From NCBI GenBank assembly GCA_964586735.1, contig CAZPIN010000105.1, positions 1-62,686 on the forward strand: DNA of 62,686 nt. Reading direction: 5' to 3'. The position numbers were made by a program, and so were the translations under genes. Shown here one piece after another: positions 7,451-61,364 of the stretch. Source of the stretch: an uncultured Rhodobacterales bacterium. Lineage in GTDB: Bacteria > Pseudomonadota > Alphaproteobacteria > Rhodobacterales > CAZPXZ01. Within the stretch, counting starts at the first letter, position 1; each line of letters starts with the position of its first letter. A model generated the notes under the pieces. The model did no database searches, had not been told where the DNA came from, and was given only the letters and a program-made list of their open reading frames with translations.

Positions 7451-7460
7451 CCCCCCCCCC
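7451..7460 (+). repeat. Homopolymeric poly-C tract (10 C) between two SD/ATG pairs upstream of Calx-beta autotransporter 2
   Basis: Sequence: aaaGAGGAGaaaagcgcATG(7438)ctgaaagctt-C10(7451-7460)-gactAAGGAGGGtgtcATG(7477). With 10 C the two ATGs are in frame. Confidence 0.9.
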
Positions 7461-7476
7461 GACTAAGGAGGGTGTC

Positions 7477-16662: not shown

Positions 16663-17052
16663 GGGACGGGCTGCCTATGCTGGCGGCCGCCTGCACCGAT
16701 GCGAACGCTGTTGAGGGGATACACCGTACGGTGAACCTGGACTCGTAGAGAGAGAGCTAAGCATGACTCCATCGGCGGGGGATGTCCGCCTTCGTTGAGG
16801 AGCGGCCTGCGGGCGAAGCTGGGATGAGCGCTTGACCGGTCGAACTTGTCGATGGCAGATGCTATGATGGTCGAGATGCCCAACCCACGATATCCCAATA
16901 GCTCACGGGATTGCGGTTTCACAGTGATATGGCAGTCATCACTAGACATCCAGAAATTTCGAGGTTGACCACGTGAAGCAAACTGTGCTAGAAGTACCCG
17001 ACAACCAGACTGTCTAGACAGTCTACCCACCACATCTTAGGGAGTGGCGAGA

Positions 17053-20000
17053 ATGAGCATCGAATCAGGCAGAGTGGAGAGCCGCTTTCTCCACAACGCT
17101 CCTGGCCAATCGGCACCAGTCTCTGAGGACACTGATGGCGACCAGACAACGGACAGGATCACGCAATACCACTATGAGTCTGACGCGGTTGGAGCAGACC
17201 TCGTTAGAGTGACGGTTCAGTATGGCAGTGTTGGCGAGGATGAGACCTTCGTTCCGGAAACGCAGGAGACTTGGTACTACGATGGAACGGGAGAGGACTA
17301 CGACTACATCATCTACGACGGTACCGAGGGGGGCGACGCGGCGGACGGTACTGGCGAATGGCTGGAGTATCGAGGCGGCGCAGACTTTGAGCATGTGCTC
17401 GACGGTGCGCAGACGGGTCTAGCCGGGGTGCAGGCGGTTCAGCTGTCAGGCCGGGGCGGCGCCACTACTCTGACTCTGTCCGACGGGGATCTGACGGAGC
17501 TTGCCAACGGAGCGGACGGCTACGTGGTGAAGATCGATGGCGGCCGCGACGACACGGTGGTGTTTTCCGGCAACATCATCTACGCCACTGGCCTCGTCGT
17601 GAATGGGCGTAGGGAGTTTCAGGGGACGGACGGAAAGGTTTATGTCGCGAATGCGGTGGCGTTCAGGGGAGCACGAGACCCGAGGGAGGTCATTCTTTCC
17701 AACCTCGCTGAGGCCACAGTGGATATGTTCGGACTACTGGCGGGCGGAAACGGTATTGTCGGCGTTACCGCGGATAATCTAGACTCCGTCAAGACGGTGA
17801 TAGGAGCATATGGATCTGCCACATCGCCTGCTCTGGCGGACCTTACGGAAGCCCAGATCGTGAATCTGGCGGGGGTTGTTTCCACAGGCCGTGCGGTACC
17901 CTCGGGCGGAAGGGTGCTTACAGCAACTCTTCAAGAAGATAATGTGTGCTTGCGCTTAGAAGTTGACGCGAACGGAGATAGTACGATCGACCAGCGCGTC
18001 GGAGTGACATTGGACGGGGCAACGCTGGCGGTGATCGGTCTGACACGGAGCATGGATAGCAACGGGGACGGTGTCTGGGACGACCGAAGTGAAGTGGACA
18101 GCAACTATGATGGTACCGTGGACCAAGTGATAACAGTTGGGCGGACAAAAACTGACAGCGACAGCGATGGAACTGCCGAAAGAATTGTAACGAAGACGTT
18201 TATTGACGGGACTCTGCGCATAAAGGCAACCGAGGAAGATATTGACGACGACAGCACCGTAGATACCGAGGAGACTCTCTACTATGATGGCACAGGTGAG
18301 CCGCGCGATGACGGCACTGGAGTGCCATATGATTATGCGGTGCTGGATGGTAGTGGAACCAGTGATAGGCAGGACGGAACGGCGGACCGGCTGGAGTACA
18401 AAAATGGGATTGATTTTACTCACACAATCTACGGCACGGGCAGGGAGGGGTTGGTCGGAATGAGGAGGATCATGCTTGCAGACGGAGAGGGGGACATCAC
18501 CCTGACATTTGCCGATGGTGCTTTGGAAGGGCTTGCCGCCAATGTAGACAACTATACGCTGACCATAGATGGCGACAGTGGCGACACAGTGGTGTTTTCC
18601 GATGACGTTTATAATACGGGAGTGCAGGAGGGCAGTCACGATGTGTACCGCGGCGAATCGGTGCGGGTTCTCGTTAATTCGGAGGTGGAGGTGATGGGAG
18701 AGCAGGATGCCCTCGAAGCCCTGCTCGCCAACTTGGATGATGCCACGGTGGGAATGTTTGAACGGGTGGGCGATGAGGGAATCGCCGGGGTCACCAGCGA
18801 CAACCTTGCCCTTGTCAAGGTGGTGTTGGGAGTTTTTGGCTCGGCAACCACGCCCCCGCTAACAGACTTGACGGAGGAGCAGGTGCAGAATCTGGCGTTG
18901 ATTGCGTCTAGCGGCTTTGCTGTTCCAGCAAGCAGTGCAGTGATGGCTGCCTCGGTGAGCCAGAACAACCTTGTCCTGAAAGTCGATCTGAATGGGGACG
19001 GTACGGAGGACCAGCGGTCAACGGTGAGCCTTGCTACAGGTACGATGGCTATGACCGATATGTTGCGAGTATACGACAGTGACAGCGACGGAGATTGGGA
19101 CAGTCGAAGTGAGAGGGATGTATACGACGATGGAACTCGTCAAAGTAAGGCGGTTCGAACGGACAGTGACGGGGATGAAATATTTGAGCGTATTGAGACG
19201 GAAACGTATCAGGCTAGTAGGCTGCACACCTATAAAGTGGAGCGGGATCTGAATGATGACGGAACAATAGACACGGCGGAGACCCAGTACTACGATGGTA
19301 CAGGAAGTAGATACGACTATGCCCTTTTCGACGGCGATGGAACCAATGATCCAGCGGATGGAACCGGGGAGTGGTTGGAGTACCGTAGTGGAACGAATTA
19401 TGATCGCCCATTCGATGGTGCGGAGGTAGGGGTCGCTGGAGTGCAGGCGATTCAGTTGGCTGGGCGGGGAGGTGTAACCACATTGAAGTTCTCCGACAGT
19501 GACCTGACCGAACTTGCAAACGGTGTCGGAGGATATATGCTTCGTATTGACGGTGACGCTGACGATTTGGTGAAGTTCAGTGGAGGGATATATGATACTG
19601 GGCAACATGACGGTGACTATGAGGTGTATCGGGGAACAAGCGGAACTGTGCTTGTGGATGCGGACGTGGTGGGAGTTTCGGGAACGTCGGACGCACTGTC
19701 GGCGTTGCGAATGAACATCTCCAAGGCCACGGTGGAAATGTTTGGATTGGTGGGGGACGGAATAACTGGCGTGAGCAAGGGTAATCTCGCAGCCGTTAGA
19801 ACGTTACTTGGCGAATACGTGGACTCCACGGCGATAGGTGGAGGTACCCTAACAGAGGCGCAGGTAGGAGCGTTGGTGAGCATTGTCAACGATGTTGAAA
19901 ATGTCCCGGAGGGTGCAGAGATTGCTACCATTACTGCGGTCGCCGGAAACAATCTTGTGCTTGAGATGACGCTCCCCGTATCCGGAGGAAGTAGAATGCG

Positions 20001-22479
20001 GGTAGAGTTAGGACTGAATGTGTCTAGCTACGCGATCACGAGAACAACTCGCAAGTTCGACGAGGATGGCGATGGTACCTATGAGCTGATTGAACATGAT
20101 CACGACGCGGACGGGATTTTGGACGTGGTGGAACATGACGAGGATGACGATGGAACCGTTGAATATAAAGCGTATGACGATGGAATTGGTAGCGGCGGTG
20201 ATGATGGCACCCCCGACAGACTGGAGGTTTTAACCGGGGGCGCACCGATGTTGATCATTGGCGCAGATATGGCGGAGGAGTTTGCGCTAGTAGCCCGAAT
20301 TGAGATGGCTAATGACGTGAGTAACGTGAGCGGTGTAACGCTTGTAAATGGGGTGCTGGATAGGCCGGCAGACCATAATGGTGATGGAACCGTTGACAGC
20401 GTGTTTACGCTTACGGTAGTAGGCGGTACAAACGACACGTTAGCGGTGGGAGACACAGCAGTTGTCCGCGAGGAATCATCCGACACAGCAGGTTTTAACG
20501 CTTATCGCGGATCGAGCGGGCTACTAATGGTCGACGAGGATGTGACAGTGGATTTCGCGCCGGCGCAGGCAGTGCGATCGATTCGAAGCGACCCCGCGAA
20601 TGCAACTACCGCGATGTTTGCCGATATTGGTATTGATGGGCTCAGCGACCGGAGTCTTGCAAATGTAAAGATGCTAATTGGGGCGTTTGACAGCGATAGC
20701 ACGCCTGCTCACTCGGAATTAACTTACAGCCAGATTCATAATCTTGTTGAAATTGCAAGTGACACCCGTGTTGTGAATGCGGATGGGACGGTGACTGCGG
20801 TTTCTTTGAGTGAAGATGGTATGACCGTGGATATAAACACCGACGCAGACAACGTTATTGAAGAACGATCTGTACTCAATCTTGACGCTGCGAGCTTAGC
20901 ACTATTAGATCAAGTAAAATGGTATGACTTGTTTGGCGATGGAACTTTCGATGTCCGAAGTTATGAAACGTATAACAGTATTGGACAAGTACTCAGCTAT
21001 GACTTTGTCTTGGGCAGATATTTGTCCAGTGAGCGATATACATATAAAGATGGTGCGCTAAATGCAAAGGTGACAGAAAAAGACTACGATGGCGACGGAA
21101 CAGTTGATCGCCGTGAAACTTACACATATCACAGCACTGGAGAGCGCGCAAGTAAGATCACTTTGTTTGACAATGACGATGATGGTACTATGGATGGCCG
21201 CTCGAATACTACATACAATGACAGGGGTTTTCCAACTTACGCGGAACATGACAGCGGAATTGACGGTACCATGGAGTCCCGCGAAACATGGATTTACCAC
21301 AGTACAGGTGAGTTGAAATCCAATACAACAGTGCGTGACGTCAATCATGACGGAACAGCAGATACCCAGGATCAAAGGTACAGCGAAAGTGGTAAATTGA
21401 TTAGTGTTGAGTTTGACAGTGGTACAGACGGTACCGTGGATACAACGACACACGGTTACAACGACAAAGAACAACTGGTAAGTACGAAGTTTGACAGAGA
21501 ATCTGACGGTACCATAGAACGGCGCGTAGATTACACATATCATAGTAATGGCGAGCGACATACAAAAATTCAACAAGAAGACAATAACGGTGACGGTACT
21601 TTTGATAGGAGGAGAGAGGAAAGTAATAATGAAAATGGAAAGCTGGTCAGTTTTGATTTTTATTACGGCAATTTCGACTACGTTAACTCTCGCAGAGAAA
21701 TCACTTACTTTGCGTCGGGAAGGAAAATGACAGACATTACACGTTATGACAATGATGACGATGGCGTTTTTGACAGGAAAACGGCGAATACTTACAATGA
21801 GTTTGGTATAATCCGGACTGATAGCGATTATGATTTCGATGGGACAATTGATTATCAGTTGGTATACACGTATCACGATAATGGCTATCGAGCGACATAC
21901 ATGGAGAGGCAAGATAATAATGACGACGGAACTGTTGGCCTTTCTATAACGTACACTTACAACGAGTCTGGACAAAAAATTCGATCGGAAATCGATCTCG
22001 ATGATGACGGAACCCCATATTTTGTATGGGTAGATGCGGATGCCGATGGTTACGGCGAAATGATGTCATTCAGCTGGGGAGACAGTGGGACAGTTAACTA
22101 TCGGATTTATGATGGTACAGGATCCTCTGACGATGACGGGACCCCAGATCGTTTGGTGTTTACTGATGAAACAAGATTTTCAATGAGGTTGGGAGGTCCC
22201 GAAGCGAGGACGGCTTCGGGTATCAGTACGATTGAATTAGCTGGTGAAGTCGACAGGTCGACAACACTTGAAATACAAGATGAAGATCTTACAGTATTGT
22301 CCGCTGGATTGAGTGAATATAGACTTGTTGTCAGAGGTACGGACAGTGATACGCTCCGAATTGGTGCTGGCATAAGTAGAATCACCGGCGAGGGTGCCTT
22401 GGACGGAGACCGTACGGGTTATGAAGGGTCGCACGGGAGAATATATGTTGACCCGGAAGTAGCAGTTGAACATGTATAG
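17053..22479 (+). CDS. Giant Ca-loop (DxDxDGxxD) repeat protein, family 2, with no signal peptide or BapA-type prefix; possible T1SS-type surface protein (~1808 aa)
   Basis: The ORF track starts at GTG 17044; ATG 17053 has SD AGGGAG (17038-17043). There are five ~330-aa supermodules, starting near 17355, 18385, 19369, 20215 and 22147. Each has module A (e.g. EWLEYRGGADF...AGVQAVQLSGRGGATTLTLSDGDLTELANGADGYVVKIDGGRDDTVVFSGN...GRREFQGTDGKVYVANAV). Module B follows (ATVDMFG..GVTADNLDSVKTVIGAYGS...LTEAQIVNLAGV), then arrays of DxDxDG loops. The 3' third holds about 12 YD-like repeats. The protein ends in a module A copy (...GYEGSHGRIYVDPEVAVEHV). Confidence 0.8.
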   Translation: MSIESGRVESRFLHNAPGQSAPVSEDTDGDQTTDRITQYHYESDAVGADLVRVTVQYGSVGEDETFVPETQETWYYDGTGEDYDYIIYDGTEGGDAADGTGEWLEYRGGADFEHVLDGAQTGLAGVQAVQLSGRGGATTLTLSDGDLTELANGADGYVVKIDGGRDDTVVFSGNIIYATGLVVNGRREFQGTDGKVYVANAVAFRGARDPREVILSNLAEATVDMFGLLAGGNGIVGVTADNLDSVKTVIGAYGSATSPALADLTEAQIVNLAGVVSTGRAVPSGGRVLTATLQEDNVCLRLEVDANGDSTIDQRVGVTLDGATLAVIGLTRSMDSNGDGVWDDRSEVDSNYDGTVDQVITVGRTKTDSDSDGTAERIVTKTFIDGTLRIKATEEDIDDDSTVDTEETLYYDGTGEPRDDGTGVPYDYAVLDGSGTSDRQDGTADRLEYKNGIDFTHTIYGTGREGLVGMRRIMLADGEGDITLTFADGALEGLAANVDNYTLTIDGDSGDTVVFSDDVYNTGVQEGSHDVYRGESVRVLVNSEVEVMGEQDALEALLANLDDATVGMFERVGDEGIAGVTSDNLALVKVVLGVFGSATTPPLTDLTEEQVQNLALIASSGFAVPASSAVMAASVSQNNLVLKVDLNGDGTEDQRSTVSLATGTMAMTDMLRVYDSDSDGDWDSRSERDVYDDGTRQSKAVRTDSDGDEIFERIETETYQASRLHTYKVERDLNDDGTIDTAETQYYDGTGSRYDYALFDGDGTNDPADGTGEWLEYRSGTNYDRPFDGAEVGVAGVQAIQLAGRGGVTTLKFSDSDLTELANGVGGYMLRIDGDADDLVKFSGGIYDTGQHDGDYEVYRGTSGTVLVDADVVGVSGTSDALSALRMNISKATVEMFGLVGDGITGVSKGNLAAVRTLLGEYVDSTAIGGGTLTEAQVGALVSIVNDVENVPEGAEIATITAVAGNNLVLEMTLPVSGGSRMRVELGLNVSSYAITRTTRKFDEDGDGTYELIEHDHDADGILDVVEHDEDDDGTVEYKAYDDGIGSGGDDGTPDRLEVLTGGAPMLIIGADMAEEFALVARIEMANDVSNVSGVTLVNGVLDRPADHNGDGTVDSVFTLTVVGGTNDTLAVGDTAVVREESSDTAGFNAYRGSSGLLMVDEDVTVDFAPAQAVRSIRSDPANATTAMFADIGIDGLSDRSLANVKMLIGAFDSDSTPAHSELTYSQIHNLVEIASDTRVVNADGTVTAVSLSEDGMTVDINTDADNVIEERSVLNLDAASLALLDQVKWYDLFGDGTFDVRSYETYNSIGQVLSYDFVLGRYLSSERYTYKDGALNAKVTEKDYDGDGTVDRRETYTYHSTGERASKITLFDNDDDGTMDGRSNTTYNDRGFPTYAEHDSGIDGTMESRETWIYHSTGELKSNTTVRDVNHDGTADTQDQRYSESGKLISVEFDSGTDGTVDTTTHGYNDKEQLVSTKFDRESDGTIERRVDYTYHSNGERHTKIQQEDNNGDGTFDRRREESNNENGKLVSFDFYYGNFDYVNSRREITYFASGRKMTDITRYDNDDDGVFDRKTANTYNEFGIIRTDSDYDFDGTIDYQLVYTYHDNGYRATYMERQDNNDDGTVGLSITYTYNESGQKIRSEIDLDDDGTPYFVWVDADADGYGEMMSFSWGDSGTVNYRIYDGTGSSDDDGTPDRLVFTDETRFSMRLGGPEARTASGISTIELAGEVDRSTTLEIQDEDLTVLSAGLSEYRLVVRGTDSDTLRIGAGISRITGEGALDGDRTGYEGSHGRIYVDPEVAVEHV

Positions 22480-22724
22480 GGTCAGTCTCCCATGTCTTTG
22501 GTCAATCAGCAGGAAGAGGGCGTACGGCAAGCCGTACAACACTCTTGCAGAATCCGCAGAAGAATAATGCAGAATGTAGAACATGTGGAAGGTGACATTC
22601 TTCTACAAGTGCAGTCTGCGGAGAGCAGTTGCAGTACGTACCAAACTTGTGTTTTTATGCGGAGAAGGGTAGTACTCTTGCACGGACAGAATGCAAACAA
22701 CAGTATTAAGGGCGAAAAATTCAA

Positions 22725-32740: not shown

Positions 32741-33027
32741 GGCCGTCGGTTTGTACCAGTCCCCAGCGGGGCTGCCAGGCATAGGCATTCCGCATCGGAA
32801 GCCGCCACGTTTCCCGGCGGCCTTTCCTTCCTTCGCGGGAAGGTCCAGCGCGCGCGGTTCGTTCCTATCTGAGGCGCGGGTAAGGTTCGCGCGCGCAGGC
32901 TCGATACCGCCGACGCCGCTGCTTTGGTCCCTGCTATCCGTAAGTATGTCGGTAAACCGTCTGGATTTCCGCTATCCTGCGTCGCCAGTACATGGGTCAT
33001 GAGGACCGGAGCGCAGGGGAGGACAGT

Positions 33028-34581: not shown

Positions 34582-34845
34582 GGCCGTCCGCCCTCGACGG
34601 CCTGCTGCGGATTGCGGCTCGTTTTGTGGCAGAGACTGCCGCGCTGGTGGCAGTTCCCGGGTCTCTGCGCTTCAGCACCCTCGATACACGGCATGGCCAG
34701 CGCGTCGATTTCTACAGTGCCTTCCGTCCGCATTGCCCAGCGGGGCGGGCGCATTGCCAAACGCCATACAAGGGTGAAGCCGCTTGCGCCGCTGCCGCAG
34801 CCCGTCTATGCTGACATGAAAGAGATCCCCCTGGAGAAACCTGAT

Positions 34846-36850: not shown

Positions 36851-36952
36851 GCGCCCCTCGACGAGGGCGTCCGCGAGGAGATCGATGCATTTGCCGCCCG
36901 CCGCACCGAGGAGGGCGGCGCACCCGCCAGCATTTGCAGCAGTCCGCCCTCG
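36851..36952 (+). pseudogene. Relic of the 3' end of a third mttB-family copy (last ~25 codons plus downstream bases)
   Basis: gcgcccctcgacgagggcgtccgcgaggag (36851-36880) matches mttB copy 1 at 32654-32683 in 30/30 positions. gcccgccgcaccgaggagggcggcgc matches in 26/26. gtccgccctcg matches the sequence just after the copy 2 stop. It translates to APLDEGVREEIDAFAARRTEEGGAP, against APLDEGVREELEAFVARRTEEGGAPTDF in the intact genes. Confidence 0.75.
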
Positions 36953-45436: not shown

Positions 45437-48400
45437 ATGGCAAGCGGGGTTGTAGGCGCAGCGGATGCGACCAGCGGCCTAACGGTGGCGGCGATGGCCA
45501 GCCTGACGGAGAAACTGCGTCTGGCCGGAATCGAATCACAGGTCGTCGAAACCTACCGCGACGGAAACAGCCTCGTGCTGGTGCTGGCCGACGGCCGCGA
45601 ACTGCGCATCGAAGACTACTACCTGCAGACGCAGCGCCACGCGACCGAAGATGCGACGGCGGCAACGGGCCTGATCGAAGACGAAACCGCTGCCGACATG
45701 GCGCTGGCAAGGGCCTCTCTGGAAGAGATGTTTGGCGGAGACGGCGATCACGCCGCAGCCGCCGAGGCAACCGGCTCGGCAGTTCTGGATATGGGGCCTC
45801 AGGTGGCGTCGGCGGCGCCGCTGGGCGGGCTGGGCCTGCCGCTTGGACTGACGGCACTGGTGGCGGCCGCGCTGGGCGGCGACAGTGGCGGAGGGTCAAG
45901 CTCCCCTGAATCGTCTCCCGCCGCCCAGCCGCAGGAGAACGGGCTGGCGCCGCCGCCCTCGCCGCAGCGAACCGTCACAAAGACCCCAACTGCGAGCGGA
46001 GGCCAGTCTGAGACGTCGCCGCAGCCTGATACGTCGCCTAAGCCTGATACGTCGCAGCAGACTGAGGCAGATACCGCGAATGCTGAGTCGGAAGATGGCG
46101 ATTCGGAAACGGGCACGGTTTCGGTACCGGAGGACGGACAGTTGGGGACTTCATCAAAGCAGTCTGGCGGAGAATCCCAGACGGGAAGCGGTGGCAGTAC
46201 GGATAGCCAGCCTCAGACAGCGAAGCAGCAGACTCTGAATCAGGAGGAGCAGGCGCGGCAGCCGGACCAGACGGCGCAGATAGGCCCGGGCGTGGGAGGC
46301 CCCGGGAATCCCCCACCTCCGCCGACGCCACAGGAAACCGCGCTGGCGAGAATTCTGACCAGCCCGCAAACGGCGACCGTGGATACGTTTGCGACGGCAG
46401 GAGTTTCTGGCGTAACCGCTGTGCGGCTGGACTCCGTCAAGTCCCTGCTTGGCGCGATGGACGACGTCGAAAAGACGGAGCTGGGACTGGACAGCCTGCA
46501 GTACGTAGCAGACATCGTTTCGCGCTACGTCAACCCGGGCGCCACGAACTTCCTGGATGCGGCGGTCAGCTTCCCCAACGGCGGCACCGCCCTTGAAGTG
46601 GAAGTCGACACCGACGCAGATGGATCGCCCGACCGCACCATGACGTACCTTCACGATGGCCTGAGCCAGTTCCGCATCGAATTCGATGACGGCAGCGACG
46701 GAACCTTGGACCGCATCGACCTTGACGATGACGGTGATGGAACCGTGGACCAAATCGAGACTCGCGTCTTCAACTCAGACGGGGTGATGACGCTGCGAAG
46801 CATCGACAGCAATGCTGACGGGTACGCGGACATCGACTACTACGACGAGGATGCGGACGGGTCGGTGGACCGAACCGATACGCATGTCTACGACGGGCAG
46901 GGAAGGCGGAGCGAGACGCGCAAGGACCTGGATTCGGATGGCACCATCGATGAAACGCTTGCCATAGGCTACGACGCGCAGAACAGGGTGAACCTGAACC
47001 GGTATACCGCGGACGGCAATGATGACGGGACCCCTGACTCCATACTGGAGTACCGCTACGACCCGGACAGCGGGGGCCGCGTAGTCAGCTACACGAGCGA
47101 CGGAAACGCCGACGGAACCGTGGAGGTGATCAAGCACTATCGGTATGACGGCAATGGACGGCTTGTCTACAGCGTGGAGGATGACGGGGGCGACGGCACA
47201 GCTGATCGAGTCGTTTTCACGGACGGCATTGGCTACGCCTATAGCCTGGAAGCGGCGGAGGCGGTAACGCTTGCGGGACTAGACCGCGTGGTGCTGGCGG
47301 GAGATAGCGGATCGACCACGCTGCGCATGACGGACGAGGCGCTGACAGCGCTGGCGGACGGGGAGTCCGCGTATTCCCTCGCGATTGATGGCGAGGATGA
47401 CGACGTGGTGCTGCTCATGGGAAGCGGGTACGCCTTGGCGGGCGGAACCGACTCTTCCGGGCGAATCGAATATGCGGGGACCGGCGGCTCGGTATTTGTG
47501 GATGCGGACGTACCCGTAGTTACCGTGGGCAATCCCGAGGCCTTTGAAGCCATACTCGCGGCCATCATGTCGCGGGGGGTAAGCCCCAGCGCGGCGCAGA
47601 TGCAGTCAATTGCCCGTATCGCGGACTATGTGCCGGAGGGCACCGAGGTGGATTCCGCCAGCTACGCGCACGCAAGCAAAAGCCTGTCGCTGGAGATCAG
47701 CGGAGACCCCGTATACACGGAAATGTACATTCGCCTGAACAGCGGCTTTGCTGCGACGTACGCGCAGTATTCAAACTCTGACAGCACCCGGATAAAGATG
47801 GTGAATGATGCCGATGCCGACGGAAATTTGGAAAAGGCCACGGTACAGGAGTATTTTCTGGCGGGGTCGCTCCTTGAGGGGCTGCGGCAGGGCAATATAG
47901 CGAGAGATCAGTCCAGTTACGACAACAACGACGACGGCACCATGGATGTCGTCTGGATACGCCAGTGGCTTGATGGAGGCCCGATACATCGCAGCGAACA
48001 GGATTTTGACGCTGACGGGAGGATGGACAAGGTGGAGGTGTCTGGATACGACGCCAGCGGCAGGAAGTCGTATGTAGTAGAGGACTACACGCTAGGACAG
48101 CCTGCCGACGGCGCGATGGACAGGATTTTGTTTGTCGACTCCGTCAGCCGCACGGTAGCGCCCACCGCAGCGGAAGCGGTGGAGTTTGCCGGAATTGATA
48201 GCGTCAGGATGGCCCAGAAAGGCGGCGCCAGCACGCTGGTATTGCGCGAAGCGGCGCTGGCGGCAATTGCGGGCAGCGATGAAGCATACAGGCTTACAAT
48301 TGACGGTGACGCGGACGACACGCTGCATTTACGGGGCGGGAGCATTGTGCGCGACGTCTCGGCCGATGCCGGCGGTCGCGAAGCCTATACGATGGACGGC

Positions 48401-49330
48401 AGTACCGTGCTCGTGGATGCGGACGTAGGGGTGCTCCATATCAGGAATCCGCAGGCTTTTGACAAAATACTCGGGGCGTTCAATGGAGCCACGCGGACCG
48501 GTTTCAGTTTGGCTCAGATGCAGTCGCTTGTACGCGCGTCGGACTATGTCCCTGATGATGCAGAGGTATTGACGGCGCGGTACGGTTCGCAGTTCAACTA
48601 CCTGCAACTAACTGTCACTGGCGATCCCGTGTACGCCAACATTAGGATTAATTTGAACAGCGACTACGCTCCTACGCTGGTGCAGTATTCCAACTCAAGC
48701 CGTACCGAGGTCAGGATGCTGGTAGACGACGACGCCGACGGATTCCTGAACGAGACTCACTACCACCGCAACACCGCGGACCGCACACTGTACTGGGAGC
48801 GGCGGGTTTTCGACAGCGACGACGACGGTACGGCGGACGTAATCTGGATTAAGCGGTACAGCCCAGACGGGGGAGCGCTGCTGCGCAGCGAACTTGATAC
48901 GGATGCCGACGGGACAGCCAACAACATCGAGGTTCGGGGGTATGACGGCGAAGGGAGGTCGGCCTACACAGCCGTCGACAAGACCGCAGACGGCTCGATG
49001 GACAGCCTGACGTTCAACGACGGTGAAGACCGCGCAATTGCATGGGACGCGGCGGCGGCGGCAGACCTGGCCGGGCTGAACAGCATTGCGCTGGCGGGAG
49101 GAGATGGCGCGAGCACGCTGTCGCTCAGCGAGGCGGTATTGGCTGCTCTGGCGAACGGCGAAACTGGGTATACGCTGCGCATCGACGGCGATGCCGATGA
49201 CACGGTGCGGTTCACGGATGGTGAGATAGCGCGGGACTCCTCAGCCGATGCTGGGGGACGGGAAGCCTACGCCGCAGGCGGTATCACAGTCCTGATCGAC
49301 CCGGACGTTGCGGTCCAGTTGCCTTCGTAG
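45437..49330 (+). CDS. Giant Ca-loop repeat protein, family 2, with BapA-prefix/retention-like N-terminus (1297 aa); probable T1SS-type adhesin
   Basis: SD GAGGAG lies 10 nt before ATG 45437. The N-terminus VVETYRDGNSLVLVLADGRELRIEDYYLQ resembles the R-x-G-N-D-L-V-I...F-F prefix of BapA/LapA-type adhesins. A hydrophobic G/A/L segment (LGGLGLPLGLTALVAAALGG) follows, then a P/T/S/Q-rich linker and YD-like plus DxDxDG repeats. There are three module A copies, the last at the C-terminus (...REAYAAGGITVLIDPDVAVQLPS). Confidence 0.8.
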   Translation: MASGVVGAADATSGLTVAAMASLTEKLRLAGIESQVVETYRDGNSLVLVLADGRELRIEDYYLQTQRHATEDATAATGLIEDETAADMALARASLEEMFGGDGDHAAAAEATGSAVLDMGPQVASAAPLGGLGLPLGLTALVAAALGGDSGGGSSSPESSPAAQPQENGLAPPPSPQRTVTKTPTASGGQSETSPQPDTSPKPDTSQQTEADTANAESEDGDSETGTVSVPEDGQLGTSSKQSGGESQTGSGGSTDSQPQTAKQQTLNQEEQARQPDQTAQIGPGVGGPGNPPPPPTPQETALARILTSPQTATVDTFATAGVSGVTAVRLDSVKSLLGAMDDVEKTELGLDSLQYVADIVSRYVNPGATNFLDAAVSFPNGGTALEVEVDTDADGSPDRTMTYLHDGLSQFRIEFDDGSDGTLDRIDLDDDGDGTVDQIETRVFNSDGVMTLRSIDSNADGYADIDYYDEDADGSVDRTDTHVYDGQGRRSETRKDLDSDGTIDETLAIGYDAQNRVNLNRYTADGNDDGTPDSILEYRYDPDSGGRVVSYTSDGNADGTVEVIKHYRYDGNGRLVYSVEDDGGDGTADRVVFTDGIGYAYSLEAAEAVTLAGLDRVVLAGDSGSTTLRMTDEALTALADGESAYSLAIDGEDDDVVLLMGSGYALAGGTDSSGRIEYAGTGGSVFVDADVPVVTVGNPEAFEAILAAIMSRGVSPSAAQMQSIARIADYVPEGTEVDSASYAHASKSLSLEISGDPVYTEMYIRLNSGFAATYAQYSNSDSTRIKMVNDADADGNLEKATVQEYFLAGSLLEGLRQGNIARDQSSYDNNDDGTMDVVWIRQWLDGGPIHRSEQDFDADGRMDKVEVSGYDASGRKSYVVEDYTLGQPADGAMDRILFVDSVSRTVAPTAAEAVEFAGIDSVRMAQKGGASTLVLREAALAAIAGSDEAYRLTIDGDADDTLHLRGGSIVRDVSADAGGREAYTMDGSTVLVDADVGVLHIRNPQAFDKILGAFNGATRTGFSLAQMQSLVRASDYVPDDAEVLTARYGSQFNYLQLTVTGDPVYANIRINLNSDYAPTLVQYSNSSRTEVRMLVDDDADGFLNETHYHRNTADRTLYWERRVFDSDDDGTADVIWIKRYSPDGGALLRSELDTDADGTANNIEVRGYDGEGRSAYTAVDKTADGSMDSLTFNDGEDRAIAWDAAAAADLAGLNSIALAGGDGASTLSLSEAVLAALANGETGYTLRIDGDADDTVRFTDGEIARDSSADAGGREAYAAGGITVLIDPDVAVQLPS

Positions 49331-52399: not shown

Positions 52400-55300
52400 T
52401 TAAAGGGCAACGACCGTGATATCAGGATCGATGAAGATTATGCCATCTGTTCCCTGATACCCGTTTCGCCCCGCTTCGTCTGTTTCCTTGTCACCCGTGG
52501 CCCCGCTAAGGCCACTTAGTGTTACGCGATCGTTGCCGTCTCCATCAATAATTAGCTTATAGTTCAATGCGCTGCCCGCAAGTACTGTCAAGTCCTCGTC
52601 GCTAATTGTGATCTTCGTTGAACCAATTCTAAATCCGTCGTTCCCTGCCAGCTCCATCTTGGTGATTCCGGTTAGCAACGCTAGGTCAAAATCGCTCAAG
52701 GTCAACGTTACAGTATTTCCGTCAATGAACTCCAACCGATCCGGTGTACCGTCGTTTGATCCACCCTCATTGTCATATATTCTAATGTCCATAATGCCGT
52801 CCATTGTAGTATCCCCTGTTCCGTCCATATCCTCGTCTAGTGGGCCTTCGGTTGCAAGGTCAAATTCTTGCCGTTCCGCTGTTGAATCAAAGTTCGGATC
52901 GAACCACCTGCGCACCGTCCTGCCAAAGAAGCTGAAAGTGGTGACATAGTCCACTTCGATGCCGGAAGGCGATAGATTATCGTCCAGGCTGAGTTTAACT
53001 CTCCTTCGATCCACTGGCGTTACGCCATCGCTCTCAAATGTCTCCAAAGAAAATCTCATGAGCGGTTCGGTGCCCTCAAATCTAACAGTGTCGGTGATAA
53101 ACCTGGATACACCGGGAATGACGTACTCATTGGCGACAAAGTCGTCAATCAATGTTTCCAGCATTTCTCTGCTTATGTCAGTATACCTTAGTGGAAACGG
53201 GAAACGAAATGCCCGTACTGCCTGCCAAACCAAATGATGGTCCACATCCGCGGCGTTTACGCCATGCCGCTCGAAAACCGATTCATGGTTGTACGCAGTC
53301 CCGTCGAACGCGTCCCCGGCCCGTATAGCGCTTCGATTACCGTCAATTACCTCCAAAACATCCAATACTCGAATTACCTCCACGCCTGAATCAACGTATA
53401 CTGTTCCATCAGAGCCTTGATACTCGTCCCGGCCGCTGGAGTCAGTACCCCCAGTCGCCACTATCCCACCTCCCAAGTCCAACACGCCGCCATCTGCGCC
53501 ATGAAAAACAATGGTATAGCCCGATCTGCTGCCAGCCAGGGCGGTCAGCGTATCGTCAGACAGCCTGAATGTTGAATCAACATCTTCACCGGAGAAGTGC
53601 ACATTCCCAATTCCTGCAAAGTCACCAGTCTCCGCTTCTTTGAGATTGAAAAAGTGAGGCGCATCTCTGTAGAAGTGAATCGCGTCAGGCGAACCATCTC
53701 CCAGTTCGTCATCCACTCCATATATGCGGGTTCCTTCGTCATCATAGAAATACTGCAGCTCGCGTACTAGTGTTTCATTTGTCCCGCTGTACACTAGTTC
53801 CCTGTCAATCTGCCCGTTTGAATTGAAGTGCCGTACCGCCACGTGATCCGTGCCGTTTAGCATACCGTCATCACCACGCTCCTCGTATCGTTCTACGACA
53901 GCGAGGTATCCCGCTGCATCATACGTAGTTTGTCGCCATGTCTCAAATGTTCCGTCTTCATCGTTGTCTGTACGTACTGTTTCAGTTTCTCTCGTGTTGG
54001 CCTGGACTCTGTAATTCGTTTCACGGCGAACCTCTAGTGTTCCGTTGTTGTCGTAATCTACTTCAAAAAGAACTTCATCGCCGTTTATGTTTAGTTCGCG
54101 CTTGTCAGAATGGTCTACTGTACCGTCATCTGCGGTTCCCATGTCCATATTCGAACCGCCAAGTCCATCATCGTATTCAATATGCAACTCCGATACGGCC
54201 ATACCATCTGGCGCATAGATCGTACGCAAACGCCTTTCAAAGTGTCCGTCGTCGTCCATATCAGTAACGTCATGCCTTTCCGTAAGTATGTCATCCTCCG
54301 TCCCATTGTCGCTTGTCGTACTGTATCGCAATTCTACCCGGCCTTCGGGTGTGCCGTCTCCGTCGACATCCGTGTAGGTAATTGTGGAAACAGCTTCATT
54401 CGTACCATTGCTGTCCATGTCAGTCTCCGTTCGATCCGGTCTACCATCCAGATTATCATCAAACACCGCATATTCAGAGGCCAATGTGCTGTCGTTCAGG
54501 GTAAGCCAAACGACAAAATTTTCCGAACTGCCTGCATCGTCGCTGTCAATCCCGAGCATGAGGGTCAAAGCGCCTTCTTCACCTTGGGAAACTGATGCGG
54601 ACACAATCGCGCCGCCTGTCGGTACAAAACGGTCTACAGCGTCCGTCAACGAGTCAACTCTTGTTTGGTTGAAGGTTGAGTAGAGGTTGAGAAGCACAAC
54701 CGACTCTTCGCGGCTATCCGTCTCCAAGCTGTCTAGAATAGCGTCCAGTGCAGCAGGGGTACCCAGTACCGAAACCGCCTGCGCGACTAGAACTTTTCCG
54801 TTTCGTCCCTGGTATTCGTCTTTTCCATCGATAACTCTACCCGTCGCGTATATGCCTCCATTGAAGGTCACGGAGTCGTTAGCCTCGCCATCAATAGCAA
54901 GTTCATAGCCGCTCTCGCCGTTTGCCATTGTCGTCAGATGAGTGTCATCCAGAGTAAGTCTGGTAACCCCTTCAGAAGACGAGTCCGTACCGGTGACCTG
55001 GTCCCCCGACAGCTTAATGGCATCAATGCCTGCAAACTCAACTGCGATTTCAGCAGTTACAACCACCTCGGTGCGATCGGGCACGGTCGGAGCGGGAGCC
55101 TGCGGGGGAGCAACTCCATCGGGGAACTTAACGCTGTCCAGAGTCCCATCTTCATCGCTGGTACCAGATCCGTCACGCAGGATGAAATCCGTTGTTCCGT
55201 CCTCATTAATATCGCGGTCAATCGATTCGTCAATACCATCATAGTCGCGATCTGCTTCAATGGTATCAATGGTTCCATTTCCGTCGCGATCCCGATGTAC

Positions 55301-58300
55301 GATAATTCCAGTTATGGAAAACGCCGCTGGAGAAACAATTATTTGCAGCATTCGGTCAACTGTTTGGTCACTGTCTTCATCTATGCCGATCACAAGTCTG
55401 TCCGGTATGGCAGACTGAGTGAATGGTATAGCTGGCTGCGCTGGTGCAAACACAGAAGAAATAACAGAATCGTCAGTTCCAAATACGCGGTGCTCGCCGG
55501 CGATATCAATTAACCCCTGTACCTGAGTCGAGGTTAAGTCGCGTAGCTTTGGGCTAGAATGCTGTTCGTTGTCGAAAGAGCCAATCAATCCTTTTATATT
55601 TTCCAGATTTCCCTCTGTTACATCAGTGAGTCCCGCCAGTTCAAACATCTTCAAAGTAGCTTCTCCCAAGTGGCGCAGCACTCCCGCGAGCGGGTCCAGT
55701 GCCCCTCGGACCTCCACGTCTGGGCCCACGTAGAATTTTGCATTCGTGCCCTGGTACTCACGCCGGCCTTGATCGTCCGTTCCTCCGGTTTGATAGATAA
55801 TCTCATTGCCATTGGTGGTTCCGTCTCCGATAATGACGAAGTCATCAACATTTCCATTCACCGGAGAATCTGGATACCCATCAACGGTAAAGGAGTAATT
55901 ACTGTCCAGTACGCCATTGGGGCTTGCCAATGCGGTGAGGGCATCGTCGTCAATTTTCAGAGAAACGCCAACACCGCTATAAGGCGGGTTGGGCGACTTG
56001 GTACCAGGTAACATAACCTCTCTCACTCCAGTAACTTCACTCCTAGTTGAATCCAGCGTTAGGTCGTAGTGTATTACCTCATCCGTTCCGAAACCAGCCG
56101 CAAAGAACTGCAATCGGTCTACCGTGCTGTCGTATCGGTTATCCGTTCCAAATCCGTCATACCTGGTGTACAGAGCTTCGCTGTTGCTTCCTAGATAAGT
56201 GTGATACTCCGCCCTGTCTCGAGTGCCGTCAGCGTCGTCGTCGAAAAACTGCGTATCAATACGACCAGTAGCGTCATAGGCATTGGTTTGAGTTTCATCT
56301 GCCGTTCCGTCGTCGTCGATATCCGTTTCAATTTGCACCGTTTCAATAAAGCCGTCTCCCGAGTACATGGTGATGGTTACTCTATCAACAACGTATGCGT
56401 CATCGTCGCTGTTTATTTCAACGCGAAGCTCTTCAAGCGCAGCCCCGTCGGCACCAAACGTTTCAAACCGGTGCTCATCACGTGTACCGTCAACATCCGT
56501 ATCAATAGCGGTAGTACGAGTTATCAGCAGCCCGTTGGTGAAATTAGAAGTTGCCACAGTCTCGTATGTTCCGTCCATGTTGATGTCGATGCTTTCGGTT
56601 ACGATATCTACCATGCCGTCAAAGTTGTTGTCGGCCTCCTGCCGGTCCCCAATGGTTCCATCATTGTCAGCATCGACATCCCGCACCATTTCTGTTGGTG
56701 CAAACGCTGCTGAATCGAGAGTCAGCGTAACCCGCTGATCGACTGTGCCATCTCCGTCGGTGCTGATACCAAGTACCAGCTGCTCCATATCCAGGCTAGC
56801 GATTTCCAACACCCCCCCAAAAGGCACTACAGCGACTTCGCCGGTGATTATTCCTGCTAATGCCCGTACTTGCGCTAGTGTAAGGCTTTCCCGAGGTGGC
56901 GTGGTTTCTTCGTTCCATTGCCCAATTACCAGCTTTACGGCGGAGAGATTTTCACTGGTCACACCGGGAATGGCTGCCGTGGCAAACAGTTCCACCGTAG
57001 CAGCGCCGAGGTTGCTGAGAATGCTCATTAAGGCGTTAAACAGCGTGAAGTCGACGATGATGTCCGAATCCAGCAATATCGTGCCGTGACTGCCCCTTAG
57101 AGCGCGATATCCAGCAGGAGTTTGGTCAACTGTCGCGTCCACGATCTGATCGTCTGTAACCGCAAGTGCTCCACTGGCCCCATTGACTGTAAGCACGAAT
57201 CCGACATCGGGGGTTCCATCGCTGTCCCTGTCTGACAGCCGGGTTAACGTCTCGTCGTCTATCTCTACACTTTGCTCACCACTTCCTTCTCCAAGATTGA
57301 TCTCGGTAATTCCCGCGAATTTCTCCACTTCGTTAGCGCCGAACGCCAGGTGGAAGGATACACCGCTGGCAAGCGTTAGCTTGTCGAGCGTACCGTCATC
57401 GTCTCCGGTACCCGTGCCATCGCTAAGGATGTAGTCAACTGTACCGTCATCATTGGAATCGTACGCGATGGTTTCGGCATTGCCGTCTGCTTCAGCGTCG
57501 GTTGCCACCGTCTCGTAGGTGCCGTCGGAGTCGTCATCGCGGCTTAGTGTTGCTCCAGAAACAGCAAAATTCGCAATATTTAGCGCAAGCGCCGCGCTCA
57601 GTTCAATCGCTGGATCCGAGTGGGTGCTTATGCCAAGCGTTAGTACACTCCCTGACCAGGCTGCAGAGTCAACGATTGCGCCAGCGGGCACGATCTCGGC
57701 GTCGTTGACAATGTCTACAAGCCCCTGTATCTGTACCTGCGTCAGACTGGTCAGAATTGGCGTGGTTTCCGCGCCGAAAGCACCGATGGTCGTTCGTACG
57801 TTTTCCAGATTGCCAGAGGAGATACCCCTCAGACCGGTCTGCTCGATCATCGCCAGCGTCGCGATGTCCAGATGTCGAAGCACTGCTGTCAGTGGATCAA
57901 CCGCTCCCATCACACTGACCGCCGGTCCTACTAGAACCCTGCCGTTCGTGCCCTGATACTCTTCGCGGCCATTGGCAGTGACGCCGGTTCCGTAGATTGC
58001 GTTTCCAGTAAACACCAACCGGTCGTCGCTTCCCCCGTCAATAACCAGTTCATAGCCGCTGTCTGGCGTACCGTCGCCCTTGCCATCCGCCAGCAGAGTC
58101 AGCTGCGCGTCAGAAATAGTAAGCGTTGTCCTTCCGGTTCCGATGCGGATGTCACCGGCCAGATCAATCGCGCGGATGCCGGCAAATTCCCTCGCAAGTG
58201 CATCGCGCAAGGCCAGGTTGTATTCCCCGGGGCCGGAAATCACCAGACGGTCTGGAACGCCGTCGTCATCGGACGTTCCCGTGCCGTCATACAGCATGTA

Positions 58301-60982: not shown

Positions 60983-61364
60983 TCGCGCACCTCGTTTGCC
61001 AGTGGCTTCGTTGCTACCAGACACCGCTGCGGCTGGGGTTCCAATACTGAGGCTTGACCCAAAAAGCCGCCCGCAGCCGTGCGGACATTCTATCCGCCGA
61101 TTTGTTCGAGATGGGCCTTCGCAGCTCTAGGCCAAGCGCAGCCGCTGCCACACGCCATTTGCAGGACAATGTACTGATCGTTCGAAGCTGGCGGCTTGGT
61201 AGGAGGCCACCCTCACCCTGAGGGGGGTGCGCTTGTGCCCGCCGTCCGTCCACGCTAGACACGACCCGCAACGTTCGCTTGGCGGTCTTCCAGATTGGCG
61301 CTCGTGGACACAGGCCGGACGGGCATCTGTTGTGCCTGCTCCGAGGCAGCCAAGGGAGCGCATC

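What the first reader, a model, noticed from the sequence alone, without database searches (positions are those of the whole stretch)
22147..22479. The ~110-aa C-terminal module of all three family-2 giants also recurs internally (15 copies in total)
Seen: each protein ends in the same module. Examples: ...TLEIQDEDLTVLSAGLSEYRLVVRGTDSDTLRIG...GYEGSHGRIYVDPEVAVEHV; ...TLSLSEAVLAALANGETGYTLRIDGDADDTVRFT...REAYAAGGITVLIDPDVAVQLPS; ...KITISDEDLTVLAGSALNYKLIIDGDGNDRVTLS...GYQGTDGIIFIDPDITVVAL. The same module occurs 4, 2 and 6 more times internally, each preceded by DGT.DRL(E/V)F and followed by a conserved ~100-aa helical-looking module (AT..MF...G..GVT..NL..VK..IG.F...LT..QVQ.L). Established: T1SS substrates carry an uncleaved C-terminal secretion signal. 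From memory, the pattern L-x-L-x-D-(V/L)-L...I-x-G-D-x-x-D-x-V...Y...V-x-V-D-x-D-(V/I) resembles the VC_A0849-type T1SS C-terminal target domain. Inference: a secretion-signal-like domain has been co-opted as an internal repeat, or this is a new supermodule. Either would be undescribed as far as I know. No T1SS ABC, MFP or TolC genes are in the window.
Basis: partly seen in the sequence, partly recalled or inferred. Interest (0 to 1): 0.72.

Follow-up and report, generated by a model that had tools for sequence, protein, structure and literature searches.

The report
Repeated end-cap domain of secreted giants
Three giant acidic proteins from a sponge-metagenome bacterium are built from repeated three-part units that each end in the same ~110-residue domain, and this domain belongs to an uncatalogued family that normally sits at the very end of proteins exported by the type I secretion system.

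Summary
Exactly 15 copies of a ~110-aa module (A) occur in three proteins: G3 17044-22479(+), G5 45437-49330(+) and G6 52400-61024(-). They split 5, 3 and 7, and one copy forms each C-terminus.

The proposed identity is wrong. A is not a VC_A0849-type (TIGR03661) domain: no HMM or profile-profile match was found, and a positive control scored. A matches no Pfam, NCBIfam or PDB entry.

The broader idea holds up. Of 105 relatives among 1.84 billion representative proteins, 76 end in A, including 49 of 51 single-copy proteins. Relatives carry BapA prefix domains, RTX repeats and FG-GAP propellers. In a distant branch (hhalign 98.2%) A directly follows RTX nonapeptides, and three such genes sit next to type I secretion ABC/adaptor genes.

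The true repeat unit is B (helical) – C (Ca-loop rungs) – A, so each protein simply ends with a complete unit. Terminal and internal copies form distinct subtypes. Terminal copies carry (I/V)-D-P-D-(I/V)-T-V plus a short tail.

Best reading: A is a C-terminal cap for calcium-binding repeat blocks. The last copy also carries the secretion signal. Export itself is untested, and no secretion genes lie in the window.

The parts
17044..22479 (+). G3, 1811 aa. Five units, the first lacking B. It has no BapA prefix and starts in the middle of a unit, so it is N-terminally truncated.
45437..49330 (+). G5, 1297 aa. BapA prefix-like N-terminus, Gly-rich hydrophobic segment, Pro/Ser/Thr/Gln-rich linker, then three B-C-A units.
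52400..61024 (-). G6, 2874 aa. BapA prefix-like N-terminus, Gly-rich hydrophobic segment, then seven B-C-A units.
45533..45646 (+). BapA_N prefix-like match in G5 (aa 33-70). It is below the curated cutoffs.
60686..60943 (-). BapA_N prefix-like domain in G6 (aa 28-113). Pfam score 34.2 bits against a cutoff of 27.
17341..17670 (+). Module A, G3 copy 1 (aa 100-209), internal type
18370..18699 (+). Module A, G3 copy 2 (aa 443-552), internal type
19354..19674 (+). Module A, G3 copy 3 (aa 771-877), internal type
20200..20556 (+). Module A, G3 copy 4 (aa 1053-1171), internal type
22132..22476 (+). Module A, G3 copy 5 (aa 1697-1811). Terminal type, ends ...IYVDPEVAVEHV. This is the region of the finding.
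47192..47524 (+). Module A, G5 copy 1 (aa 586-696), internal type
48104..48439 (+). Module A, G5 copy 2 (aa 890-1001), internal type
48986..49327 (+). Module A, G5 copy 3 (aa 1184-1297). Terminal type, ends ...VLIDPDVAVQLPS.
58841..59206 (-). Module A, G6 copy 1 (aa 607-728), internal type
57905..58267 (-). Module A, G6 copy 2 (aa 920-1040), internal type
57047..57400 (-). Module A, G6 copy 3 (aa 1209-1326), internal type
55703..56131 (-). Module A, G6 copy 4 (aa 1632-1774), internal type with insertions
54761..55153 (-). Module A, G6 copy 5 (aa 1958-2088), internal type
53369..53698 (-). Module A, G6 copy 6 (aa 2443-2552), internal type
52403..52756 (-). Module A, G6 copy 7 (aa 2757-2874). 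Terminal type, ends ...IFIDPDITVVAL.
17674..17985 (+). Module B (four-helix), G3 copy 1. Further G3 copies lie at 18703-19011, 19687-19998 and 20563-20853.
46337..46624 (+). Module B, G5 copy 1, which precedes the first A. Shortened copies lie at 47591-47710 and 48455-48628.
59960..60265 (-). Module B, G6 copy 1, which precedes the first A. Further copies lie at 58532-58834, 57605-57898, 56741-57040 and 55397-55696, with a partial copy at 54536-54670.

Best explanation
Module A is a ~110-residue alpha/beta domain that caps the C-terminal end of a calcium-binding repeat block in proteins exported by a type I secretion system (T1SS).

G5 and G6 are BapA-prefix-type giant surface or adhesin-like proteins made of tandem B-C-A supermodules. 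G3 is a 5'-truncated copy. B is a four-helix module. C is a variable number of Asp-rich DxDxDG-type rungs. A's first strand, DGTxDRLxF, is the last rung of C.

Each protein ends with a complete unit, so its C-terminus is an A domain. That last copy belongs to a separate 'terminal' subtype, which ends in G-x-(I/V)-(Y/F/L)-(I/V)-D-P-D-(I/V)-(T/A)-V plus 2-4 mostly hydrophobic residues. I infer that this subtype contains the uncleaved secretion signal.

Internal copies lack this signature and end in a Gly that leads into the next B. I infer that they are structural.

T1SS substrates emerge C-terminus first and fold outside the cell on binding Ca2+. Each A would therefore appear before its own C and B, fold, nucleate the upstream Ca rungs, and act as one tooth of a folding ratchet.

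Shown here: the anatomy, the family, the C-terminal bias, the two subtypes, and the association with RTX repeats and T1SS genes in relatives. Inferred: export of these three proteins, the location of the signal, and the cap/ratchet role.
For: - Copies: 15 copies, highly significant. The unit order is B-C-A.
- Structure: AF2 models are confident. A-B-C-A gives pLDDT 83.4 and pTM 0.76. A alone gives pLDDT 87 and pTM 0.82.
- C-terminal bias: the family has only 106 representatives at E<=1e-3 among 1.84e9. In 76 of 105 the last copy ends <=15 aa from the C-terminus, and 49 of 51 single-copy proteins are terminal.
- Two subtypes: the nearest neighbour is terminal-to-terminal for 32 of 36 copies and internal-to-internal for 31 of 39 (permutation p<2e-4). 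In 9 of 11 multi-copy proteins the terminal copy is closer to another protein's terminal copy than to its own internal copies. DP[DE] occurs in 31 of 76 terminal copies against 5 of 112 internal copies.
- Relatives look like T1SS substrates: 17-25% Asp+Glu in most, almost no Cys, and no signal peptide seen by eye in the N-termini. They carry BapA_N (11-13 of 40), RTX (4 of 40) and a LapA retention module (1).
- Distant branch: it is homologous to A (hhalign 98.2%, E 4e-14) and follows RTX nonapeptides directly. An RTX motif lies within 60 aa upstream of 45% of 220 copies, against 12% at random positions.
- T1SS genes sit next to three relatives. One is an alphaproteobacterial MAG with OEP, ABC and MFP genes. 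One is a Pantoea agglomerans plasmid with TolC, ABC and HlyD genes directly after a 3516-aa BapA_N adhesin that ends in the domain. One is Novosphingobium pSA1 with ABC and MFP genes.
- G3, G5 and G6 are 12% Asp, 1-2% Lys and have 0-1 Cys.
- Literature: in serralysins and MpIBP the C-cap of the RTX roll contains the secretion signal. Folding is vectorial from C to N and ratchets export (PMC6891781; PMC9120197; PMC10511787).
Against: - No T1SS genes lie in the 62.7-kb window, and the rest of the source genome could not be examined.
- The four close-branch loci with readable flanks (L003-L006) show no adjacent T1SS genes. All three T1SS-adjacent examples belong to the distant branch.
- The window proteins have no canonical RTX nonapeptides.
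- Foldseek finds no significant similarity between A and solved RTX caps. The best hit has E 0.77, and TM-scores against CyaA and lipase hits are <=0.46.
- G5's terminal copy is closer to its own internal copies than to other terminal copies.
- G3 lacks the N-terminal prefix and may be a non-functional remnant.
- No experiment bears on export or on Ca-dependent folding.
Confidence: 0.6

Rival explanations
1. A is a VC_A0849-type (TIGR03661) T1SS C-terminal target domain that has been duplicated internally.
For: Its position at the extreme C-terminus and a loosely similar L-x-L-x-D-x-x-L stretch. This rests on memory only.
Against: No hit of TIGR03661 to any of the 15 copies, or to the last 200 aa of G3, G5 or G6, at E<=10. 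The EHEC ECs_0542 C-terminus scored E 7.9e-9 in the same search. None of 40 relatives hit it. hhalign probability is 0.07% for A1 and 0.6% for A6 against a bona fide domain.
Confidence: 0.03
2. A is an ordinary structural or ligand-binding repeat of a surface protein and has no role in secretion. It sits at the C-terminus only because the supermodule happens to end with it.
For: Twelve of the 15 copies in the window are internal. Internal copies are as well conserved as terminal ones. No T1SS genes lie in the window.
Against: - 49 of 51 single-copy relatives place A within 15 residues of the stop codon, behind unrelated N-terminal architectures such as FG-GAP, RTX and BapA_N.
- Terminal copies form their own subtype with a conserved final strand.
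- Three relatives are adjacent to T1SS operons.
Confidence: 0.15
3. Each supermodule is a former or latent independent T1SS substrate, and the giants are fusions of tandem paralogous genes. Internal A copies would then keep signal activity. For example, they might act after cleavage at Asp-Pro bonds, or re-engage the transporter during export of very long chains.
For: - In RTX/FG-GAP relatives every supermodule looks like a complete substrate: propeller, RTX repeats, then A, repeated 2-6 times.
- Tandem arrays of separate genes that each end in A exist: four in L005 and two in L006.
- Asp-Pro is conserved in terminal copies, and some A/B junctions read D-P.
Against: Internal copies lack the terminal signature (5 of 112 against 31 of 76 with DP[DE]) and end in a conserved Gly. 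There is no evidence of processing. The split between internal and terminal subtypes looks old, not recent.
Confidence: 0.12
4. A is a sorting domain for another pathway, such as a T9SS-like C-terminal domain or a cell-surface anchor.
For: It is a folded ~100-aa domain at the extreme C-terminus, as T9SS CTDs are.
Against: - The N-termini of G5 and G6 lack a Sec signal, which T9SS and T5SS need. The Calx-beta giants in the same window do have one.
- The hosts are Proteobacteria.
- A co-occurs with RTX and BapA_N.
- T1SS genes are adjacent in three relatives.
Confidence: 0.03

Closest known systems
C-cap of RTX beta-rolls: serralysin/AprA C-terminal domain, MpIBP region V, CyaA block V and the linkers of its five RTX blocks
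   Same: It follows a Ca-binding repeat block directly. The last copy lies at the protein's C-terminus, where the uncleaved T1SS signal sits. In CyaA, capped blocks also recur along the chain and fold in series from C to N (PMC6891781, PMC9120197, PMC10511787, PMC8486122).
   Different: There is no detectable sequence relationship and no significant Foldseek match. A is a larger alpha/beta domain with two helices. In the window it caps 13-residue DxDxDG rungs rather than GGxGxDxUx nonapeptides. It is part of a B-C-A supermodule.
TIGR03661 T1SS_VCA0849 C-terminal target domain
   Same: It is a ~90-110 aa domain at the extreme C-terminus of giant, acidic, repetitive adhesin-like proteins with BapA/LapA-type N-termini.
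   Different: It is not homologous by HMM or by profile-profile comparison. To my knowledge TIGR03661 has not been reported as an internal repeat.
BapA/LapA/SiiE-type T1SS giant adhesins
   Same: G6 has a BapA_N prefix and G5 a marginal one. A Gly-rich hydrophobic segment follows the prefix. The body is long, acidic, Ca-binding and repetitive. A distant relative in Pantoea has the same N-terminal organisation and sits beside TolC, ABC and HlyD genes.
   Different: The extender is not made of Ig-like, Calx or cadherin domains. It is made of B-C-A supermodules that match no Pfam family. No RTX block or known T1SS C-terminal model is present.
T9SS C-terminal domain (functional analogy only)
   Same: It is a folded ~100-aa domain at the extreme C-terminus that would mark cargo for export.
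   Different: The pathway, the taxa and the requirement for a Sec signal all differ. There is no homology.

Membership tests
TIGR03661 (T1SS_VCA0849 C-terminal target domain) | Score above the model's curated cutoff (17.6 bits) | tested here: not met
   No hit at E<=10 for the 15 copies or for the last 200 aa of G3, G5 and G6. The positive control ECs_0542 scored 36.6 bits in the same call.
TIGR03661 (T1SS_VCA0849 C-terminal target domain) | Remote homology detectable by profile-profile comparison | tested here: not met
   hhalign of A1 against the ECs_0542 C-terminus gives probability 0.07%. A6 gives 0.6%.
TIGR03661 (T1SS_VCA0849 C-terminal target domain) | Location at the extreme C-terminus | tested here: met
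   In 76 of 105 family proteins the last copy ends <=15 aa from the end, and 49 of 51 single-copy proteins are terminal.
Type I secretion substrate (class) | No N-terminal Sec signal peptide | tested here: met
   By inspection only, with no predictor run. The N-termini of G5 and G6 lack an n/h/c region. G1, G2 and G4 in the same window have a clear one (MRWLRTAGLLLALAGMWPLGAWAQ).
Type I secretion substrate (class) | Acidic, Cys-poor, Ca-binding repetitive sequence | tested here: met
   Asp 12%, Glu 5-7%, Lys 1-2%, Cys 0-1. DxDxDG-type loops with 13- or 27-29-residue spacing lie upstream of 13 of the 15 A copies, with ordered periods visible before 10; G3 copy 1 has none in the 90 aa upstream.
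Type I secretion substrate (class) | RTX nonapeptide repeats (PF00353) upstream of the C-terminus | tested here: not met
   No HemolysinCabind hit in G3, G5 or G6. The feature is met in the distant branch of the same domain family.
Type I secretion substrate (class) | BapA prefix-like N-terminal domain | tested here: inconclusive
   G6 scores 34.2 bits in Pfam against a cutoff of 27. G5 scores 22.1, below the cutoff. Both are below the NCBIfam cutoff of 35. G3 has none.
Type I secretion substrate (class) | Cognate ABC transporter, membrane fusion protein and TolC-like gene nearby or in the genome | tested here: not met
   None lies in the window. The feature is met for three distant relatives: L007, L009 and L010.
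Type I secretion substrate (class) | C-terminal region sufficient for export | not testable with these tools
   Needs a reporter-fusion secretion assay.
RTX-type C-cap | Directly follows a Ca-binding repeat block | tested here: met
   In the AF2 model A's first strands continue the 13-residue rungs.
RTX-type C-cap | Fold similar to solved caps (AprA, lipases, CyaA block V) | tested here: inconclusive
   Foldseek lists PML and LipA lipases and CyaA RTX fragments only at E 0.8-4, with TM <=0.46.
RTX-type C-cap | Required for Ca-dependent folding of the upstream block | not testable with these tools
   Needs CD or NMR of C and C-A constructs with and without Ca2+.

The most novel reading that the evidence does not exclude
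The giants are natural concatenations of T1SS cargo units, and the internal A domains are not inert. They would act as reiterated secretion or re-engagement signals, or as Ca-triggered Asp-Pro processing points, letting a T1SS handle chains of 2000-5000 residues or release several products from one gene.

A more modest version: internal and terminal copies of one domain within one protein form a natural matched pair. The differences isolate the elusive T1SS recognition determinant, here (I/V)DPD(I/V)TV plus a hydrophobic tail.
Probability: 0.12. Interest if true: 0.8.

Novelty: new variant of a known kind. Interest (0 to 1): 0.55.

Why it matters
T1SS secretion signals are widely described as lacking a consensus. 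Only a few C-terminal domain families, such as RTX caps and TIGR03661, are catalogued.

This is a further, uncurated C-terminal domain family. It reaches from sponge-associated Alphaproteobacteria to Pantoea, Novosphingobium and Nitrosomonas. It has a confident predicted fold with no solved relative.

The same domain exists in terminal and internal versions within single proteins. The differences between them, concentrated in the last strand, give a directly testable hypothesis for what a T1SS recognises.

The repeating pattern 'Ca-binding block plus cap' also generalises the CyaA picture of serial, C-to-N templated folding to non-RTX giants.

Practically, a curated model for this domain would give a functional clue for many large proteins currently annotated as 'hypothetical'.

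Tried and rejected
- The search for homologous proteins with the 15-copy alignment and with a terminal-copy alignment returned nothing. The word prefilter failed on this composition.
- With A4, the search for related loci found one locus in the GTDB representatives, a Jannaschia MAG with only the C-terminal fragment on the contig. It found none in the JGI metagenomes.
- Exact look-ups of G6 (two start codons), the right-end ORF, P0016, P0007 and P0003 were not on record. I therefore could not walk beyond the window ends to look for T1SS genes.
- Four close-branch loci (L003-L006) showed no adjacent T1SS genes.
- tblastn of G6's terminal A against plasmids found no match.
- Foldseek of the four-domain model and of A alone against the PDB found nothing significant. 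The TcdA, OspA and LolA hits have TM<=0.25 and I reject them.
- PDB sequence searches with A1 and A6 gave only chance-level hits.
- The weak LanM, EF-hand and FapA hits reflect Asp-rich loops and are not homology.
- I looked for a citable statement of the 'acidic residue plus hydrophobic tail' motif of protease-type T1SS signals and did not find it in the papers I opened. That comparison therefore rests on my own recollection of Ghigo and Wandersman 1994.
- I considered the FrpC-type self-processing module because of the conserved Asp-Pro. I have no homology evidence for it and keep it only as part of the novel case.
Full report
**What is in the window**

The window holds six giant ORFs. G1 (30-6785), G2 (7228-16662) and G4 (22725-29207) carry 8-13 Calx-beta domains each. 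They have clear Sec signal peptides and end in ...GR(V/F)G(F/I), like outer-membrane barrels.

The finding concerns the other three: G3 (17044-22479, +, 1811 aa), G5 (45437-49330, +, 1297 aa) and G6 (52400-61024, -, 2874 aa). The interval 22147-22479 is the C-terminal ~110 residues of G3.

**Checking the observation**

An HMM built from only the three C-termini recovers 12 further copies, with i-Evalues from 5.9e-9 to 4.8e-28. It finds nothing in G1, G2 or G4. A profile of all copies finds exactly 15 domains at 86-124 bits, against a maximum of 6.3 bits in 150 shuffled sequences. The split is 5, 3 and 7, as reported. The consensus is xDGTxDRLxF...AGxxxIxLAG..G.TTL...D..LT.LA....GY.L.IDG...D.V...G......G....GR..Y.G..G.V.VD.DV.V.

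The helical module B begins within two residues of the end of eight internal copies and is shortened after four others. It also precedes the first A in G5 and G6. The repeat unit is therefore B-C-A. C is a variable run of Asp-rich DxDxDG-type loops spaced 13 or 27-29 residues apart. A's 'DGTxDRLxF' is the last of these rungs. Each protein simply ends with a complete unit.

G5 and G6 start with a BapA prefix-like domain. The G6 match is above the Pfam cutoff and the G5 match is marginal. A Gly-rich hydrophobic segment follows the prefix.

G3 has neither feature and starts in the middle of a unit. Independent contigs from three sponge-metagenome runs span the G2-G3 junction without a difference, so the truncation is not an assembly artefact of the window.

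**Is A a known domain?**

No Pfam or NCBIfam family matches any copy, even at E<=10. No PDB sequence matches.

The C-terminus of the EHEC adhesin ECs_0542, which lies beside lapB-like T1SS genes, scores 36.6 bits. The last 200 residues of G3, G5 and G6 score nothing in the same run. Profile-profile comparison gives a probability of 0.07%. That identification is rejected.

AlphaFold2 gives confident models. A-B-C-A of G6 919-1327 has pLDDT 83.4 and pTM 0.76. The terminal A of G3 has pLDDT 87 and pTM 0.82.
- A is an alpha/beta domain with about ten short strands and two helices.
- B is a four-helix module.
- C is a set of hairpins followed by short 13-residue rungs.

Foldseek against the PDB finds nothing significant for either model. 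T1SS lipases and CyaA RTX fragments appear only at chance level.

**The family**

A profile search of 1.84 billion representative proteins finds only 106 proteins at E<=1e-3. Two of them, P0001 and P0002, are G6 and G3 themselves with shorter start-codon calls. In 76 of 105 the last copy ends within 15 residues of the C-terminus. Among single-copy proteins this holds for 49 of 51.

Most of the 40 relatives examined are 17-25% Asp+Glu, nearly Cys-free and without an obvious signal peptide. Of these 40, 11-13 carry BapA_N, 9 carry FG-GAP propellers, 4 carry RTX repeats and one carries a LapA retention module. None hits TIGR03661.

Terminal and internal copies are different subtypes.
- The nearest neighbour of a terminal copy is another terminal copy in 32 of 36 cases.
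- The nearest neighbour of an internal copy is another internal copy in 31 of 39 cases (permutation p<2e-4).
- In 9 of 11 multi-copy proteins, including G3 and G6 but not G5, the terminal copy is closer to another protein's terminal copy than to its own internal copies.

The differences are concentrated in the last strand. Terminal copies read (I/V)-D-P-D-(I/V)-(T/A)-V plus a short, mostly hydrophobic tail. DP[DE] occurs in 31 of 76 terminal copies against 5 of 112 internal copies. Internal copies end in a Gly in 68% of cases, against 0% for terminal copies. All three window proteins show the terminal signature: VDPEVAVEHV, IDPDVAVQLPS and IDPDITVVAL.

**Link to type I secretion**

The weaker hits form a distant branch with the consensus ...GIExIDLxGSGxNTLxLxxxDLxxLSDTxNxLxIDGxxGDTV...W...GY..YT.G.ATLLID.DI... 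It is homologous to A (hhalign 98.2%, E 4e-14 over 94 columns) and is likewise unrelated to TIGR03661.

In this branch the domain directly follows RTX nonapeptides (PF00353). In giants such as P0021, P0038 and P0061 the unit 'FG-GAP propeller - RTX repeats - A' recurs 2-6 times. Across the family an RTX-like motif lies within 60 residues upstream of 45% of 220 copies, against 12% at random positions in the same proteins.

Three genes of this branch lie beside T1SS genes.
- P0085, in an alphaproteobacterial MAG, is followed by MFP, ABC (with a faint C39-like domain) and OEP genes. It is flanked by EAL and CHASE2-cyclase genes.
- A 3516-aa BapA_N 'Ig-like' adhesin on Pantoea agglomerans plasmids carries the domain at residues 3408-3509. 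It is followed by genes for a TolC-family protein, a T1SS permease/ATPase and a HlyD adaptor. tblastn found matches on 20 Pantoea plasmid records, but I inspected only one locus.
- A BapA_N protein of at least 1722 aa on Novosphingobium resinovorum pSA1 carries the domain at residues 1622-1720. It is followed by ABC and MFP homologues.

The window itself has no T1SS genes. Four close-branch loci also have none within 10 kb. T1SS genes are often unlinked from their cargo, so this neither confirms nor refutes export. Two of those loci show tandem arrays of separate genes that each end in A.

**Interpretation**

In serralysins and in MpIBP region V, the domain that caps the RTX beta-roll also contains the uncleaved secretion signal in its last ~20 residues. 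RTX blocks need their C-terminal flank to fold. Export and folding proceed from C to N and act as a Brownian ratchet (PMC6891781). CyaA has five such blocks that fold in series, templated from the C-terminal one (PMC9120197, PMC10511787, PMC12874523).

Module A fits this role. It always follows a Ca-binding block, which is RTX in distant relatives and DxDxDG rungs here. It ends every supermodule. Only the last copy has the terminal signature.

My conclusions, with confidence:
- G5 and G6 are T1SS-type giant surface proteins, and G3 is a truncated paralogue (about 0.85).
- The terminal A bears the secretion signal, and internal copies act as folding caps or ratchet teeth (about 0.5-0.6).

'Secretion signal co-opted as an internal repeat' is therefore partly right. 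The domain is a secretion-associated C-terminal module, but the evidence points to a cap that is reiterated with each Ca-binding block rather than to reiterated signals. The alternative, that internal copies keep signal or processing activity, is not excluded. I rate it at about 0.12.

**Novelty**

The kind of thing, a C-terminal cap or target domain of T1SS cargo, is known. This family, its fold, its terminal and internal subtypes and the B-C-A supermodule are not in Pfam-A, NCBIfam release 20 or the PDB. I file it as a new variant of a known kind.

**Source**

The window is held by three sponge-metagenome runs. The one related locus among the GTDB representative genomes is an uncultured Jannaschia (Rhodobacterales) MAG.

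Noticed in passing
window 16663-17100 (G2 stop to G3 start): G3 starts (GTG 17044 or ATG 17053) in the middle of a Ca-loop region. It has no BapA prefix, no hydrophobic segment and no first B module, and lies 381 nt after the stop of the unrelated giant G2. It looks like a 5'-truncated paralogue. Logan contigs from three runs cover the junction with zero differences.
   Followed up: partly
window 30-6785, 7228-16662, 22725-29207: The three 'family-1' giants have Sec signal peptides and 8-13 Calx-beta domains. Their conserved C-termini end in ...MLEGR(V/F)G(F/I), like outer-membrane beta-barrels, yet they hit no Pfam autotransporter model. Two different export routes appear to serve giants within one 62-kb stretch.
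   Followed up: partly
window 34612-36462 and 49596-51146: Two paralogous genes encode AAA-ATPase_like plus PD-(D/E)XK (PDDEXK_9) proteins. One lies immediately downstream of G5.
   Followed up: no
window 18000-24000 and 50000-58000: G+C falls from ~0.65 to 0.47-0.55 inside G3, the 5' part of G4 and G6, while neighbouring metabolic genes are 0.63-0.69. This could reflect compositional constraint of the Asp/Thr/Asn-rich repeats or foreign origin. I did not resolve it.
   Followed up: no
G6 aa ~205-232 (window ~60330-60410, - strand); G5 aa ~127-150 (window ~45815-45890): A Gly-rich hydrophobic segment follows the BapA prefix (GGWWLGVPGGGAALLGGVLLLAAGSASSGG in G6, APLGGLGLPLGLTALVAAALGG in G5). 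The same feature occurs in the T1SS-adjacent Pantoea adhesin (WLPFMLLGGAAGGVAIGASG). It may be part of a retention or anchor element.
   Followed up: no
L005 (GCA_964509455.1 contig CAZDXS010000097.1) 1956-21216; L006 752-5322: Tandem arrays of separate genes that each end in module A. L005 has four FG-GAP proteins in a row. L006 has a pair and comes from the same sponge sample as the window. This suggests that giants with internal A copies could arise by fusion of such arrays, or the arrays by fission of giants.
   Followed up: partly
L007 246-12074 (GCA_009929775.1): The A-terminated protein P0085 is flanked by a cNMP-binding EAL protein and a CHASE2-guanylate/adenylate cyclase, then by the T1SS genes. 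This recalls the cyclic-nucleotide control of LapA-type adhesins.
   Followed up: no
window 61227-62444: This ORF has a fivefold (E-A-R/K-G) repeat near its C-terminus and no Pfam hit. The opposite strand carries overlapping ORFs with (AGLP/AGLS) repeats. It was not characterised.
   Followed up: no
window 32992-34581, 36885-39410, 42842-45166: An MttB-family methyltransferase, a DAO/GCV_T fusion oxidase of the dimethylglycine/sarcosine type, and a molybdopterin hydroxylase subunit lie between the giants. This points to methylated-amine metabolism, which fits a marine or sponge-associated alphaproteobacterium.
   Followed up: no
G3 aa 1173-1695 (window 20560-22128): The last unit of G3 has its C region expanded to about ten ~45-residue repeats of the form Y-T-Y-H-S-x-G-E...D-x-D-x-D-G-T-x-D. 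These resemble YD/RHS-like hairpins joined to Ca loops. Four of the 40 relatives give weak RHS_repeat hits.
   Followed up: no
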